The translations under genes and the position numbers were made by a program. A DNA stretch of 3,823 nucleotides from a virus (taxonomy: Duplodnaviria > Heunggongvirae > Uroviricota > Caudoviricetes): IMG/VR virus record IMGVR_UViG_2698536480_000005, positions 1 to 3,823 of that record; one strand, 5' to 3'. Below the pieces are notes generated by a model that was not told where the DNA came from, made no database searches, and worked only from the letters and a program-made list of their open reading frames with translations. How positions within the stretch are numbered: position 1 is the first letter of the stretch; every line of letters begins with the position of its first letter. Positions 1-3,787 of this stretch are shown piece after piece.

Positions 1-201
1 TTACCCATTGGCGCGGCTTAAGAGCTTATTTTTGAATTCACAATGGTCACGATATAACCATCTTGCTCGCCCGTGGATAACTTTGGCTTTTGGCAGGTCG
101 CCGGACTTAATCCGGTCATAGATGAAGGTTTTACCGAAGCCAGTATCGGCCATGATGAATTTCAAATCAACCAGTGAATCAGGCTGTAGTTCGTGTTGCA
201 T
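1..201 (-). CDS. xis: Excisionase-like / AlpA-family phage DNA-binding protein (66 aa), complete
   Basis: ATG at 201..199, TAA at 3..1. SD-like GGAGA 8 nt upstream of the ATG. Protein has the HTH core typical of AlpA/Xis (MerR-like) excisionases (LVDLKFIMADTGFGKTFIYDRIKSGDLP...GRARWLYRDHCEF). Assignment from memory of the family, not a search. Confidence 0.8.
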   Translation of the reverse strand: MQHELQPDSLVDLKFIMADTGFGKTFIYDRIKSGDLPKAKVIHGRARWLYRDHCEFKNKLLSRANG

Positions 202-242
202 GAGTGCTATCTCCGAATAGGGAATCGAACCTGCAAATCAGG

Positions 243-268
243 TAATAAAAAACCGCCATCAGGCGGCT
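243..268 (-). terminator. Rho-independent terminator (minus strand)
   Basis: Minus-strand RNA AGCCGCC-UGAU-GGCGGUU forms a 7-bp GC-rich stem (one G.U) with a 4-nt loop, followed by UUUUUUAUUA (plus strand 243-252 is A-rich). The TGA stop of the 55-aa ORF (261..259) lies in the loop. Confidence 0.6.
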
Positions 269-426
269 TGGTGTTCTTTCAGTTCTTCAATTCGAATATT
301 GGTTATGTCTGCATGTGCTATCTGCGCCCATAGCATCCAGTGGTCATAGCAGTCATTGATGTTCTCTGCTTCGATAACTCTGTTGAATGGCTCTCCATTC
401 CATTCACCTGTGACTCGAAAGTGCAT
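259..426 (-). CDS. Small hypothetical protein, 55 aa (MHFRVTGEWNGEPFNRVIEAENINDCYDHWMLWAQIAHADITNIRIEELKEHQAA); not in the ORF track
   Basis: Hand-translated: ATG at 426..424, uninterrupted frame to TGA at 261..259. Strong SD GGAGA (plus 433-437 revcomp) 6 nt upstream of the ATG. Stop sits in the loop of the downstream terminator. Mixed, non-repetitive amino-acid composition. No homology evidence. Confidence 0.45.
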   Translation of the reverse strand: MHFRVTGEWNGEPFNRVIEAENINDCYDHWMLWAQIAHADITNIRIEELKEHQAA

Positions 427-437
427 TTATCATCTCC

Positions 438-464
438 ATAAAACAAAACCCGCCGTAGCGAGTT
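438..464 (-). terminator. Rho-independent terminator (minus strand) downstream of the 93-aa gene
   Basis: Minus-strand RNA AACUCGC-UACG-GCGGGUU forms a 7-bp stem (one U.G) with a UACG tetraloop, followed by UUGUUUUAU (revcomp of plus 438-446). Lies 51 nt after the stop of the 515..796 CDS. Confidence 0.5.
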
Positions 465-514
465 CAGATAAAAGAAATCCCCGCGAGTGCGAGGATAGTT
501 ACTTGTTCATATTA

Positions 515-796
515 TTAATCGTCAATGTATTTTGAGCATTGTGGGCAATCATCAATCCCACAATACGATTCATATGCATCCTTTATTGCGTCGCGGGCTT
601 CAGTAAGAGTATTGAATAAGTTGCAGCTATTATCTTTTTGATATAGGTAAGTTCCTAATTTATAAGCAGAAGAAGCATCATTTCCGCTGTCTAAAATTAC
701 ATCGTTATGGATTCTGCACCTTGCAAGAACTCCTGATCCCATAAGGGTCTGCATAGCCCATTGCTCTTGATCTTCACACAAATCATGAATGCTCAT
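515..796 (-). CDS. Hypothetical small Cys-containing protein, 93 aa (moron-like cargo gene)
   Basis: Track ORF 515..814 starts at GTG; I prefer the ATG at 796..794 because GAGAGG/GAGGTG SD lies 5-7 nt upstream. TAA at 517..515. Gene looks AT-richer than its neighbours by eye. C-terminal YCGIDDCPQC (C-x4-C-x2-C) plus three other Cys. No family recognised. Confidence 0.7.
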   Translation of the reverse strand: MSIHDLCEDQEQWAMQTLMGSGVLARCRIHNDVILDSGNDASSAYKLGTYLYQKDNSCNLFNTLTEARDAIKDAYESYCGIDDCPQCSKYIDD

Positions 797-829
797 TTCA
801 ACACCTCTCTTCACGTTTCACACACGTTA

Positions 830-859
830 AGATTAACAGTGTTTTTACATGCTTTGGAA
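830..859 (-). promoter_or_regulatory. Candidate sigma70-type promoter for the 93-aa gene (tentative)
   Basis: In the AT-rich 114-bp gap between the DUF551 stop (911) and the 93-aa gene. On the minus strand: TTCCAA (plus 854-859) - 18 nt - TAATCT (plus 830-835). Sequence-pattern only; other AT-rich hexamers nearby are alternative candidates. Confidence 0.2.
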
Positions 860-910
860 GATTTATTTTATAAAAACTCTTTTAATACAAATAGATATAA
901 TAGTTCACTA

Positions 911-1579
911 TTATAGCTCCTTTAATCGAGGCGGTTCTGGTAGAGGCATCCAGTGGGTTACCTCTTTGAGATACAGGTCTTCGCCATCACCGTCATCCCA
1001 AGTTGGATTGCCATCATTAAACCAGTCGCCATATACGCCGACCTGAGTGTTGGGGATGTTTGGTGGGTAGTTGTTTTTAAAGTCAGCTGCTAACACATAG
1101 CATTGTCGCTCTCCCATTTCTGGCATTCGCTCACTACAGCTTATCCAACCATCCGGAGTTACCGGATAGTTGCCGGGTTCTTTAATGTGCAAGCGAGGCT
1201 CACCATCTTTTGGCTCAGGCCACTGGCGCTCCATGTTGATCTTCAATTTATCTTCCATAGCAGCGGTAATTTCAGCATCGCTGATGCCAGCACGGCGCTG
1301 TGCATCCCACAACAGAAACTGCATATCAGCCCACTCGCTAAGATCGTCTGGTTCGGCTGCGGCTTCCAGTGCCTCTTTTGAGAGATGTTTCAGCGGACCA
1401 ATGGGGCCAACGCAGCCAAATGTGGAGTCAGACCATTTGGCATGCTCGTGGCGAATCTGTTCGCGTTCCAGTGATGCCAGTGCAATTCGTGCCAGTTCCA
1501 TTTGTTCGCCACGAGTAAGTCCGTTATCAAGCGGATTTTTAATGAATAATTTGATACGTTCTTTGGTTATAGCGCTCAT
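911..1579 (-). CDS. DUF551-domain phage protein, 222 aa
   Basis: Track ORF 911..1612 begins at TTG; I prefer ATG at 1579..1577, preceded by AAAGGAGAG SD and sitting 1 nt after the TGA of the upstream ea22-like gene (TGAtATG coupling). C-terminus ...YGDWFNDGNPTWDDGDGEDLYLKEVTHWMPLPEPP matches the DUF551 signature as I recall it. N-terminal ~130 aa unrecognised. Confidence 0.8.
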   Translation of the reverse strand: MSAITKERIKLFIKNPLDNGLTRGEQMELARIALASLEREQIRHEHAKWSDSTFGCVGPIGPLKHLSKEALEAAAEPDDLSEWADMQFLLWDAQRRAGISDAEITAAMEDKLKINMERQWPEPKDGEPRLHIKEPGNYPVTPDGWISCSERMPEMGERQCYVLAADFKNNYPPNIPNTQVGVYGDWFNDGNPTWDDGDGEDLYLKEVTHWMPLPEPPRLKEL

Positions 1580-3063: not shown

Positions 3064-3546
3064 TTATTTGATAAGAAGTGAAGGTTTCCCAACTTTGAGT
3101 TGAGCGCCAGGGATATTTATTCCTGCTTTTAGTTGGTGTTTGATTGCCAGTTTGTCGGCTTTAATTATCGTTTCAAACTCAACGTATTCAGGAGGAAGGG
3201 CGCTTGAGTCGATGATTTCTACAGTTTCTGACGGTTTGCGGATTGTTACCTGGTGAATACCTGCTCGAATATTTTTCTTGCCAACCATTTCAAGCGATGA
3301 CGCTATATATGATTTGATGCTGTCAATCTTATTTTGAATTACTGCGGCTCGCTCATTCAGCGACTTTGCCTCTTCCTTGAGGCGTTCAGCATAACCAGAT
3401 TCATTTTTAATGACGGAAAGAAGTTGCTCTATTTTATCGGTAAATTCTCCTTCCATGCCTTCTATTGTGTCAGCAATCATCTCTGGTTCTAAATCTGAAT
3501 CCATCAATTTTGCGTATTCATTGGCAATTTCATACAGTTTGCTCAC
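3064..3546 (-). CDS. Siphovirus Gp157 (Sipho_Gp157) family protein, 160 aa
   Basis: Track ORF 3064..3552 starts at TTG directly abutting a GGAGG; the GTG at 3546..3544 has that GGAGG 6 nt upstream and is the more plausible start. TAA at 3066..3064. Pattern SKLYEI...DTIEG.EGEF.DK.E....VIKNE....ERLKEE.K.L.ER...I..KID..K.Y....LE..G.K.I..G...V.IRK.P..VEI.D...LP.EYV......K.DK.AIK..LKAG..IPGA.L fits the Gp157 family as I recall it. Confidence 0.75.
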   Translation of the reverse strand: MSKLYEIANEYAKLMDSDLEPEMIADTIEGMEGEFTDKIEQLLSVIKNESGYAERLKEEAKSLNERAAVIQNKIDSIKSYIASSLEMVGKKNIRAGIHQVTIRKPSETVEIIDSSALPPEYVEFETIIKADKLAIKHQLKAGINIPGAQLKVGKPSLLIK

Positions 3547-3787
3547 TGGCAACCTCCAGTTTCGCTTTGCATTCTGCGTAAATGGCTTGTACGTTCTGCT
3601 GCAATTTCATTCCAGATGTCAGGCGATATGCTTCTGCAAAATATCGCTTCAAATCATCCATGTTTTCTGCCTGAGCCATTTCATCACAAAGAAGTTGTGC
3701 TTTTTCCATTATTTCCTGCTGGCGTTTCCGTTCATCTTCGCGGATATCTTCCTCTGATTTGTGCGGCATAACTGGTTCCTGATGCAT
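3530..3787 (-). CDS. Hypothetical phage early protein, at least 85 aa; 5' end uncertain and may extend beyond the window
   Basis: TGA at 3532..3530, 17 nt inside the start of the Gp157 gene. In-frame ATGs at 3787 and 3769 (the latter with AGGAA 5 nt upstream). The frame stays open with no stop from 3787 to the window edge at 3823. Charged, helical-looking composition. Confidence 0.5.
   Translation of the reverse strand: MHQEPVMPHKSEEDIREDERKRQQEIMEKAQLLCDEMAQAENMDDLKRYFAEAYRLTSGMKLQQNVQAIYAECKAKLEVASEQTV

What the first reader, a model, noticed from the sequence alone, without database searches (positions are those of the whole stretch)
515..910. Moron-like autonomous unit: AT-rich 93-aa Cys-containing gene with candidate promoter and terminator
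The 93-aa gene sits between the early operon (DUF551 stop at 911) and the excisionase-like gene, preceded by a 114-bp AT-rich gap with promoter-like hexamers and followed by an intrinsic terminator (438-464). It looks AT-richer than the neighbouring genes by eye. A promoter-gene-terminator cassette of atypical composition next to int/xis is the classic moron architecture, where prophages carry lysogenic-conversion, superinfection-exclusion or anti-defence cargo. The protein has a C-x4-C-x2-C motif and no family I recognise.
Basis: partly seen in the sequence, partly recalled or inferred. Interest (0 to 1): 0.55.

Follow-up and report, generated by a model that had tools for sequence, protein, structure and literature searches.

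The report
Lambda ea8.5 homologue in prophage
The 93-codon gene is a variant of the long-known phage lambda accessory gene ea8.5, identical to a protein whose structure is already solved and sitting where lambda keeps its copy, so it is ordinary; whether it has its own promoter stays open.

Summary
The physical observation holds. There is a 93-codon ORF (515-796, minus strand) with a Shine-Dalgarno sequence, a 114-bp leader at 27% GC, low gene GC (38%), and strong terminator hairpins downstream.

The statement "no family I recognise" is wrong. The protein matches Pfam PF20735 (Lambda_ea8_5) and is 93/93 identical to PDB 2M7A, the NMR structure of a prophage Ea8.5 homologue.

The locus is the lambda exo-xis arrangement: upstream gene, leader, ea8.5, tandem terminators t3/t4, orf55, t5, xis. 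Window 244-561 is 90% identical to lambda DNA.

- **Mobility:** Leader plus gene travel as a mosaic module (429-953). It occurs in 111 of 5426 E. coli genomes, with different flanking genes and three different integration sites among the loci inspected.
- **Terminators:** They belong to a shared backbone present in 2218 genomes. Other phages place unrelated genes in the same slot.
- **Promoter:** The promoter-like hexamers are no better than chance, both here and across seven family loci (combined p = 0.11).
- **Expression:** Literature places lambda ea8.5 in the pL early transcript. One paper relays that it is also expressed in uninduced lysogens.

The "moron" reading is therefore partly supported but unproven. 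The element itself is already known.

The parts
515..796 (-). ea8.5-family gene (93 aa). It encodes a small acidic zinc-binding protein with a homeodomain-like/zinc-finger hybrid fold.
   Evidence: ORF. PF20735 at 58.7 bits, above the 27-bit cutoff. 93/93 identical to PDB 2M7A_A. 40.9% identical to lambda Ea8.5 over full length. phrog_6325. pI 4.33. Invariant residues C27, H30, C84, C87.
804..807 (-). Shine-Dalgarno core GAGG, 7 nt upstream of the ATG at 796.
   Evidence: Read directly from the sequence.
797..910 (-). AT-rich leader (27.2% GC) that always travels with this ea8.5 allele. It may hold a weak promoter or act as a 5' UTR, but this is unproven.
   Evidence: GC. No consensus promoter above chance. 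No stable RNA structure, z = +0.23. At least 99% identical in all 111 genomes carrying the allele. 0 of 114 changes in the 96%-identical variant locus L024.
897..925 (-). Best sigma-70-like candidate: TTAAAG (925-920), 17-nt spacer, TATTAT (902-897). It is not statistically distinguishable from shuffled sequence. A perfect TATAAT at 915-910 lacks a -35 element.
   Evidence: 41-52% of shuffles score as high.
911..953 (-). The last 14 codons and stop of the upstream DUF551-domain gene. This is the right-hand edge of the shared mosaic module and a likely recombination junction.
   Evidence: blastn boundaries are 429-953 in the O111:H- 11128 prophage and 239-961 in strain LR-50, and sequences diverge beyond these points.
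477..496 (-). Intrinsic terminator hairpin, homologue of the lambda predicted terminator t3. Its U-run extends to about 467.
   Evidence: Fold. Same sequence motif as t3-lambda in Bloch 2014, Table 4. Lambda scan.
446..465 (-). Second intrinsic terminator hairpin, homologue of lambda t4. Its U-run extends to about 437.
   Evidence: The 430-506 segment is 96-97% identical in many phages that lack ea8.5.
259..426 (-). Homologue of lambda orf55 (55 aa), lying between ea8.5 and xis.
   Evidence: 53/55 residues identical to lambda orf55. phrog_676. Window 244-561 is 90% identical to lambda 29103-29420.
250..269 (-). Third terminator hairpin, homologue of lambda t5. It is bidirectional in form.
208..246 (-). 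Context: the cII-activated integration promoter (pI-type), inferred by transferring the HK620 annotation.
   Evidence: HK620 features 1664-1702 (promoter) and 1689-1701 (cII site). Window 1-305 is 99.3% identical to HK620 1457-1761. Sequence comparison.

Best explanation
This is the ea8.5 gene of a lambdoid (P22/HK620-like) prophage. It is an allelic variant of the phage lambda accessory gene, in the same place as in lambda: the distal 'exo-xis' part of the leftward early operon, just upstream of tandem terminators, orf55, xis and int.

**Shown here**
- The protein is identical to the solved prophage Ea8.5 homologue. It is a 93-residue acidic protein with invariant Cys27/His30/Cys84/Cys87, which I take to be the zinc ligands.
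- The leader plus gene (with the last 14 codons of the upstream DUF551 gene) form a mosaic module. That module has been exchanged among prophages with different integrases.
- The terminators are shared backbone, not cargo.

**Inferred from the lambda literature**
- During infection or induction, the gene is transcribed by N-antiterminated RNA polymerase from pL. That polymerase reads through t3/t4/t5 into xis-int.
- Any non-antiterminated transcript, including one starting weakly in the AT-rich leader in a lysogen, stops at t3/t4 and so does not reach xis/int.
- The protein most likely acts by binding proteins rather than DNA. Proposed effects are perturbing the host cell cycle or replication initiation and lowering cII-dependent promoter activity, which would bias development towards lytic growth.
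For: **Identity**
- PF20735 at E = 9e-16.
- 93/93 identity to PDB 2M7A.
- 40.9% identity to lambda Ea8.5 over full length.
- Invariant C27, H30, C84, C87 in 40 diverse members.

**Synteny**
- Window 244-561 is 90% identical to lambda 29103-29420, covering orf55, t5, t4, t3 and the 3' end of ea8.5.
- The terminators equal the t3/t4/t5-lambda predicted by Bloch 2014.

**Module**
- 429-953 is 99.8-100% identical in prophages at dsdC/torI, sbcB and wrbA, with different flanking genes.

**Expression and function (literature only)**
- The exo-xis genes are transcribed from pL early after infection or induction, and ea8.5 RNA has been measured.
- ea8.5 on a plasmid represses paQ strongly and pI weakly.
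- Early functional work (ref. 18 of Donaldson 2021) linked Ea8.5 to synchronised cell division. Yeast two-hybrid partners include MinE, Q, Ren and Int.
- The family is acidic, with median pI 4.7. I read this as favouring protein partners over DNA binding.
- ea8.5 is non-essential in lambda.
Against:
- The window allele shares only about 41% identity with lambda Ea8.5, so lambda functional data may not transfer.
- The lambda functional data are mostly multicopy-plasmid or yeast two-hybrid results. The authors of the yeast two-hybrid study flag Ea8.5 as promiscuous.
- A 114-bp noncoding leader is unusual in this tightly packed operon. Leaders recur with ea8.5 genes in other operon positions, which hints at autonomous regulation that the pL-only view does not explain.
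Confidence: 0.8

Rival explanations
1. True moron. The leader contains a promoter that is active in the repressed prophage. The transcript covers only ea8.5 and ends at t3/t4. The protein would then serve the lysogen, for example through cell-cycle modulation, control of Int/Xis activity, exclusion or anti-defence. This adds to pL read-through rather than excluding it.
For: - The gene is variably present in a hot-spot slot.
- It has low GC relative to its flanks, here and in other enterobacterial family loci: gene 36-44% against flanks 47-55%.
- ea8.5-family genes carry 104-286-bp AT-rich leaders in the exo-xis region and in the nin region. The alternative DUF4752/TM-type slot genes overlap their upstream gene.
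- A terminator follows the gene in 5 of 6 enterobacterial loci examined for terminators.
- Bloch 2014 states that ribosome profiling found lambda ea8.5 expressed in non-induced lysogens.
- ea8.5 was reported as up-regulated in BL21(DE3), a lysogen.
Against: - No sense-strand promoter with 9 or more of 12 matches is found in the leaders of the window, lambda, L008, L015 or L018.
- PWM best hits are at chance level in the window (p = 0.41-0.52) and across seven loci combined (p = 0.11).
- The terminators are shared with phages lacking ea8.5, so they are not cassette parts.
- No empty site was found.
- There is no hit to defence models.
- The lysogen-expression claim is second-hand and could reflect spontaneous induction in a subpopulation.
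Confidence: 0.35
2. Plain operon gene. ea8.5 is expressed only by pL read-through. The AT-rich gap is a functionless recombination scar or spacer left by mosaic exchange, and the low GC simply reflects the history of the module.
For: - The literature assigns the exo-xis region to pL.
- No promoter signal lies above chance.
- The leader has no RNA structure and no Rfam family above threshold.
- Module junctions fall in conserved coding ends.
- Leaders of different alleles share no sequence similarity.
Against: - Leaders recur with family members in unrelated operon positions.
- Expression of lambda ea8.5 in uninduced lysogens has been reported.
- A terminator directly after the gene also recurs in nin-region copies.
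Confidence: 0.4
3. Ea8.5 is a sequence-specific DNA-binding transcription factor, with the homeodomain-like helices plus the zinc finger contacting DNA. It would directly repress cII-dependent promoters such as the nearby pI.
For: - The fold combines two classes usually associated with nucleic-acid binding.
- Plasmid-borne ea8.5 lowers paQ and pI activity.
- The gene lies about 270 bp upstream of the pI-type promoter.
Against: - The protein is strongly acidic: pI 4.33, 16 Asp/Glu against 7 Lys/Arg. The family median pI is 4.7.
- From my own recollection of Kwan et al. 2013 (not read here), its authors argued from amino-acid composition against nucleic-acid binding.
- The other papers read here treat both nucleic-acid and protein-protein roles as open.
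Confidence: 0.12

Closest known systems
Bacteriophage lambda ea8.5 (exo-xis region, lambda 29374-29655)
   Same: - Same Pfam family, same length (93 aa), and the same invariant Cys/His/Cys/Cys set.
- Same position and orientation upstream of t3/t4, orf55, t5 and xis.
- The last 47 nt of the gene and the downstream 270 nt are about 90% identical at DNA level.
- Both genes are about 38% GC next to neighbours of about 49% GC, and both have a noncoding leader.
   Different: - Only about 41% amino-acid identity.
- The leader is 114 bp at 27% GC here, against 191 bp at 39% GC in lambda, with no sequence similarity.
- The upstream gene is a dATP/dGTP pyrophosphohydrolase-DUF551 fusion instead of ea22.
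- This allele is absent from all 50,697 phage records searched and is seen only in prophages.
PDB 2M7A (Kwan et al. 2013, NMR structure of a prophage Ea8.5 homologue; hybrid homeodomain/zinc-finger fold)
   Same: The sequence is identical over all 93 residues. It is cited as the Ea8.5 structure by Donaldson 2021.
   Different: None at the protein level. The PDB chain carries 8 extra N-terminal residues, presumably from the expression construct.
Morons of lambdoid phages (e.g. lambda lom and bor, HK97 gp15). The concept is Juhala, Hendrix and colleagues 2000, cited from my own knowledge.
   Same: - Variably present accessory gene.
- Lower GC than its neighbours.
- Noncoding DNA upstream and terminator(s) downstream.
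- The lambda homologue is reportedly expressed in uninduced lysogens.
   Different: - No demonstrable promoter.
- The terminators are backbone shared with phages lacking the gene.
- There is no empty-site comparison, because the slot always holds some alternative gene.
- The gene is co-oriented within an early operon that can express it by read-through.
Alternative cargo of the same slot: the 279-nt DUF4752/TM gene (Kapi1_004, mEp213 gp29, Dewey, JEP4) and Eag (HK620 hkaD, P22 eaG)
   Same: They occupy the same position between the Ead/DUF551 block and xis. The DUF4752-type genes sit upstream of the same t3/t4 and orf55.
   Different: - The proteins are unrelated.
- The DUF4752-type genes overlap their upstream gene with no leader and are 43.7% GC.
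- The HK620 Eag replaces orf55 and t3/t4 as well.

Membership tests
Lambda Ea8.5 family (Pfam PF20735) | Profile match above the curated gathering score over the full domain | tested here: met
   58.7 bits against a 27-bit cutoff. Residues 8-93 match profile positions 1-90 of 90. Also phrog_6325 at E = 5.6e-57.
Lambda Ea8.5 family (Pfam PF20735) | Conserved zinc-ligand set (Cys-x2-His in the N-terminal half, Cys-x2-Cys near the C-terminus) | tested here: met
   C27, H30, C84 and C87 are invariant in a 40-sequence alignment of members at 25-41% identity. Actual zinc coordination was not checked against the PDB coordinates.
Lambda Ea8.5 family (Pfam PF20735) | [quoted passage not shown] | tested here: met
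   The sequence is 100% identical to PDB 2M7A chain A. That fold is described in the literature.
Lambda Ea8.5 family (Pfam PF20735) | Single-domain protein of about 85-100 aa encoded in a non-essential region of a temperate phage | tested here: met
   93 aa. Most of the 89 cluster representatives are 84-106 aa. Contexts found are exo-xis, the nin region, and next to an Ea47-like gene.
Lambdoid exo-xis region | Located between the recombination genes and xis/int, co-oriented with the pL operon | tested here: met
   The window order on the minus strand is RecT 3' end, Gp157..., Ead/Ea22, DUF551, ea8.5, orf55, xis/TorI.
Moron (autonomous promoter-gene-terminator insertion) | Present in some and absent from other closely related phages at the same site | tested here: met
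   The allele is in 111 E. coli genomes, while the adjacent backbone segment is in 2218. Kapi1, mEp213, Dewey, JEP4 and HK620 carry other genes there.
Moron (autonomous promoter-gene-terminator insertion) | Precise insertion between genes that are adjacent in relatives (an empty site exists) | tested here: not met
   No relative with an empty slot was found among the loci inspected. The slot is always filled by an alternative gene. Only about ten loci were inspected.
Moron (autonomous promoter-gene-terminator insertion) | Own promoter upstream of the gene | tested here: inconclusive
   No site with 9 or more of 12 matches. The best PWM hit is at chance level. Sequence scans cannot exclude a weak or non-consensus promoter in 27%-GC DNA.
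Moron (autonomous promoter-gene-terminator insertion) | Own terminator downstream, belonging to the inserted unit | tested here: inconclusive
   Two strong hairpins are present. However, they are 96-97% identical in phages without ea8.5 and so belong to the backbone. Nin-region family members do have a terminator right after the gene.
Moron (autonomous promoter-gene-terminator insertion) | Nucleotide composition different from the neighbours | tested here: met
   The gene is 38.3% GC and the leader 27.2%, against 45-49% in adjacent genes (z about -2.1). The Gp157 gene in the same operon is 39.8%.
Moron (autonomous promoter-gene-terminator insertion) | Transcribed from the repressed prophage | not testable with these tools
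   Only second-hand literature for the lambda allele: Bloch 2014 citing Liu 2013. The primary paper is not held.
Known anti-phage defence proteins (PADLOC-DB) | Profile match to a defence-system component | tested here: not met
   No family at E of 0.01 or below.

The most novel reading that the evidence does not exclude
Ea8.5-family genes may be self-contained cassettes (AT-rich leader with a weak non-consensus promoter, gene, terminator). They would move between the leftward (exo-xis) and rightward (nin) early operons of lambdoid prophages and be expressed in the lysogen. There, the acidic zinc protein would bind a host or phage partner to tune the cell cycle or prophage stability. Int is one candidate partner: yeast two-hybrid detects an Ea8.5-Int interaction, and one metagenomic ORF joins an integrase catalytic domain to an Ea8.5 domain. 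This would make ea8.5 an overlooked lysogen-phase gene rather than an early lytic gene.
Probability: 0.25. Interest if true: 0.4.

Novelty: already known. Interest (0 to 1): 0.15.

Why it matters
It matters little as a discovery. The gene family, the protein structure, the locus layout and the predicted terminators are all published.

The residual value is modest.
- Ea8.5 still has no established biochemical function.
- The comparative pattern seen here sharpens one testable question: is ea8.5 an independently transcribed, lysogen-expressed gene?
- That pattern is that the gene always travels with a noncoding leader, usually sits before a terminator, and occurs in both the pL and pR operons.

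A yes answer would add a sixth prophage-expressed lambda gene class. It would also redirect functional work towards lysogen physiology.

Tried and rejected
- **Searches for related loci:** The search for related loci with the 40-member family alignment failed on both genome and viral contigs, because no stretch was conserved enough. I used the look-up of encoding contigs on individual members instead.
- **RNA families:** The Rfam scan of the whole window gave only a below-threshold miRNA chance hit inside the leader. I rejected a known RNA element.
- **Leader structure:** The leader RNA fold is no more stable than shuffles, z = +0.23. I rejected a structured riboregulator.
- **Protein libraries:** PADLOC and NCBIfam gave no hits.
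- **Homologue search:** The word-index search returned only near-identical E. coli proteins. The exhaustive representative search was needed to see the family.
- **Leader conservation:** I looked for constraint using a 96%-identical variant. It had 0 of 114 leader changes against 4 of 282 gene changes, too few to conclude anything.
- **Papers not held:** Liu et al. 2013 (PNAS) and a second look-up by a PMC id I recalled for Casjens & Hendrix 2015 were not available. The lysogen-expression claim is therefore second-hand.
- **Spurious hit:** The 1784-aa hit P0015 with six matched stretches is a repetitive surface protein and is spurious.
- **Other checks:** I looked by eye for a cII-type TTGC-N6-TTGC site in the leader and found none.

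Full report
**What is in the window**

All real genes run on the minus strand. They form the distal part of the leftward early operon of a P22/HK620-like lambdoid prophage. The order is:
- the 3' end of recT;
- a Gp157/Mu-Gam-like gene;
- a D5-like regulator;
- a DUF2737 gene;
- a 143-aa ORF;
- an Ead/Ea22 gene;
- a dATP/dGTP-pyrophosphohydrolase + DUF551 fusion (911-1579);
- the 93-aa gene of the finding (515-796);
- a 55-aa ORF (259-426);
- a TorI/excisionase-like gene (1-201).

An identical copy of 430-930 lies in E. coli E308, in a prophage next to dsdC. Kil, cIII and a LexA-family repressor lie further upstream there.

**Checking the observation**

- The ORF, its ATG at 796 and a GAGG Shine-Dalgarno core 7 nt upstream are real.
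- The 114-bp gap is 27.2% GC and the gene is 38.3% GC (GC3 31.9%).
- The adjacent genes are 45-49% GC. The lowest-GC 396-bp window of the sequence starts at 506. Against the other nine ORFs the gene is about 2 standard deviations low. The Gp157 gene (39.8%) is nearly as AT-rich, so the contrast is real but not extreme.

- A stronger hairpin lies at 496-477, only 18 nt after the stop codon.
- A third hairpin lies at 269-250. The 430-520 RNA folds far better than shuffles, z = -3.3.
- The orf55-like gene lies between this gene and xis.

**Identity of the gene**

The protein is not an orphan:
- It matches Pfam PF20735, 'Bacteriophage lambda ea8.5-related domain', at 58.7 bits against a 27-bit cutoff.
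- It is identical at 93 of 93 residues to PDB 2M7A chain A. [quoted passage not shown] 2013 as cited there).
- It is 40.9% identical to lambda Ea8.5 over its full length.

An exhaustive search finds 89 family clusters, most of them 84-106 aa. In an alignment of 40 diverse members the invariant residues are M1, C27, H30, C84 and C87. C84 and C87 belong to the conserved Cys/His/Cys/Cys set. C79 is not conserved and is Gly in lambda. The protein is acidic (pI 4.33) and the family median pI is 4.7.

**The locus is the lambda ea8.5 locus**

Window 244-561 aligns to lambda 29103-29420 at 90% identity. That stretch covers orf55 (53/55 residues identical), three terminator hairpins, and the last 47 nt of ea8.5. 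The three hairpins have the same sequences as the terminators t5, t4 and t3 predicted in lambda by Bloch et al. 2014, Table 4.

Lambda ea8.5 is also AT-rich. It is 38.7% GC, against 48.5% for ea22 and 48.9% for xis. A 191-bp noncoding gap precedes it.

**Mosaic structure**

- **This allele.** Its specific DNA (562-910) occurs in 111 of 5426 complete E. coli genomes, always at 99% identity or more.
- **The lambda allele.** It occurs in 244 genomes.
- **The terminator segment.** Some part of 430-930 matches in 2218 genomes. I attribute most of these to the terminator segment, because 430-506 alone is 96-97% identical in many phages.
- **Phage records.** No record among 50,697 phage genomes carries this allele.

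The same module is found in prophages integrated at dsdC/torI, sbcB and wrbA. Their upstream and downstream genes differ. The shared block is 429-953, ending inside the last 14 codons of the upstream DUF551-type gene.

The left end of the module is less cassette-like. Segment 430-506, containing both terminators, is 96-97% identical in phages that lack ea8.5. In Kapi1, mEp213, Dewey and JEP4, a 279-nt DUF4752/TM gene sits in the slot. It overlaps its upstream gene with no leader, and it is 43.7% GC. HK620 has Eag instead and lacks orf55, t3 and t4. I found no relative with an empty slot.

**Is there a promoter?**

- The tool's sigma-70 scan finds nothing with 9 or more of 12 matches in the gap.
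- My PWM scan of 960-780 gives TTAAAG-17-TATTAT (925-897) as the best hit. This score is reached in 41-52% of dinucleotide shuffles.
- A perfect TATAAT at 915-910 has no -35 element.
- Across the leaders of seven independent family loci, the combined p-value is 0.11.
- The tool finds no sense-strand site in the leaders of lambda, L008, L015 or L018.
- The leader RNA is unstructured and matches no Rfam family at threshold.

Sequence analysis therefore gives no positive evidence for a promoter. In 27%-GC DNA it cannot exclude a weak one.

**Evidence that keeps the moron idea alive**

- Distant family members sit in other non-essential slots. P0012, P0013 and P0014 lie in the nin region of the rightward operon. 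P0016 lies next to an Ea47-like gene.
- In the enterobacterial cases the gene again has a 104-286-bp AT-rich leader and a lower GC than its flanks.
- In five of the six enterobacterial loci examined for terminators, a terminator directly follows the gene.
- In L018/L019 the order DUF551, 116-bp gap, ea8.5 recurs inside the nin region.
- Bloch et al. 2014 state, citing the ribosome-profiling study of Liu et al. 2013, that ea8.5 is among the lambda genes expressed in non-induced lysogens. I could not read the primary paper.

**How it most likely works**

Shown here: the gene's identity, its fold by identity to a solved structure, the conserved Cys/His set, the mosaic module and the backbone terminators.

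Inferred from the literature:
- The gene is transcribed early from pL. In lambdoid phages this requires N antitermination to pass terminators. That point is established knowledge of lambda and was not tested here.
- t3/t4/t5 would stop any non-antiterminated transcript before it reaches xis/int. The cII-activated pI-type promoter, annotated in HK620, maps to window 208-246.
- Reported activities of lambda Ea8.5 come from several sources. On a plasmid it represses paQ and, weakly, pI. It has been linked to synchronised cell division. Yeast two-hybrid contacts include MinE, Q, Ren and Int, although the bait is flagged as promiscuous.
- It is non-essential.
- Its acidity favours protein partners over DNA.

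**Verdict**

However, the thing itself is a known gene with a solved structure in its canonical position, and the promoter remains undemonstrated.

Novelty is 'already known' and interest is low.

Noticed in passing
window 911-1579 (-): The gene upstream of ea8.5 fuses a dATP/dGTP pyrophosphohydrolase domain (PF04447, E = 5.5e-42) to a DUF551 domain. In other prophages the same 3' end (911-953) is attached to different N-terminal parts, such as Ead/Ea22-like or DUF551-only. This suggests domain shuffling by recombination within the DUF551 coding end.
   Followed up: partly
window 208-269 (-): The t5-like hairpin (250-269) sits immediately upstream of the stretch that HK620 annotates as the cII-activated integration promoter and cII site. 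These map to window 208-246 and 233-245. A terminator butted against pI would insulate int/xis from upstream transcription.
   Followed up: partly
L023 (phage mEp234) 1501-1629: mEp234 matches window 433-561, including the last ~47 nt of ea8.5. There, these bases form the 3' end of a different 65-aa gene annotated as HK97 gp40-like. This indicates a recombination junction inside the zinc-knuckle coding end.
   Followed up: no
L015 1180-1208; L018 4316-4344; L008 4331-4359: In three nin-region loci carrying ea8.5-family genes, the same promoter-like motif (TTGATT-17-CATAAT) recurs downstream of the gene, after the terminator in L015 and L018. It lies in a conserved stretch upstream of ninB-like genes.
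   Followed up: no
L017 3582-3610 (-): The 286-bp leader of one distant family member contains an 11-of-12 consensus promoter (TTGTCA-17-TATAAT) on the strand opposite to the ea8.5-like gene, pointing away from it.
   Followed up: no
protein P0034 (343 aa): One metagenomic ORF joins a tyrosine-recombinase C-terminal catalytic region to a complete Ea8.5 domain at residues 259-343, which begins with the family's usual MSFAKR start. It may be a read-through gene call. It does place int directly upstream of an ea8.5 homologue, and it echoes the yeast two-hybrid Ea8.5-Int contact.
   Followed up: no
E. coli genomes H158-H163: Six poultry-associated E. coli genomes match only window 601-910 in one place and have a second matching place. 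This suggests the gene is interrupted or rearranged in that lineage. H164 has only 562-743, next to a DUF2528 gene.
   Followed up: no
window 3530-3787 (-): The 85-aa ORF at the right edge is the C-terminal part of a RecT-type recombinase gene cut by the end of the window (phrog_148; Kapi1_012). It is not a separate small gene.
   Followed up: yes
L024 2501-2782 versus window 515-796: A 96%-identical variant differs at 4 nucleotides in the gene and at 4 amino acids, so the changes appear to be all non-synonymous. There are none in the 114-bp leader. The numbers are too small for a selection test.
   Followed up: partly
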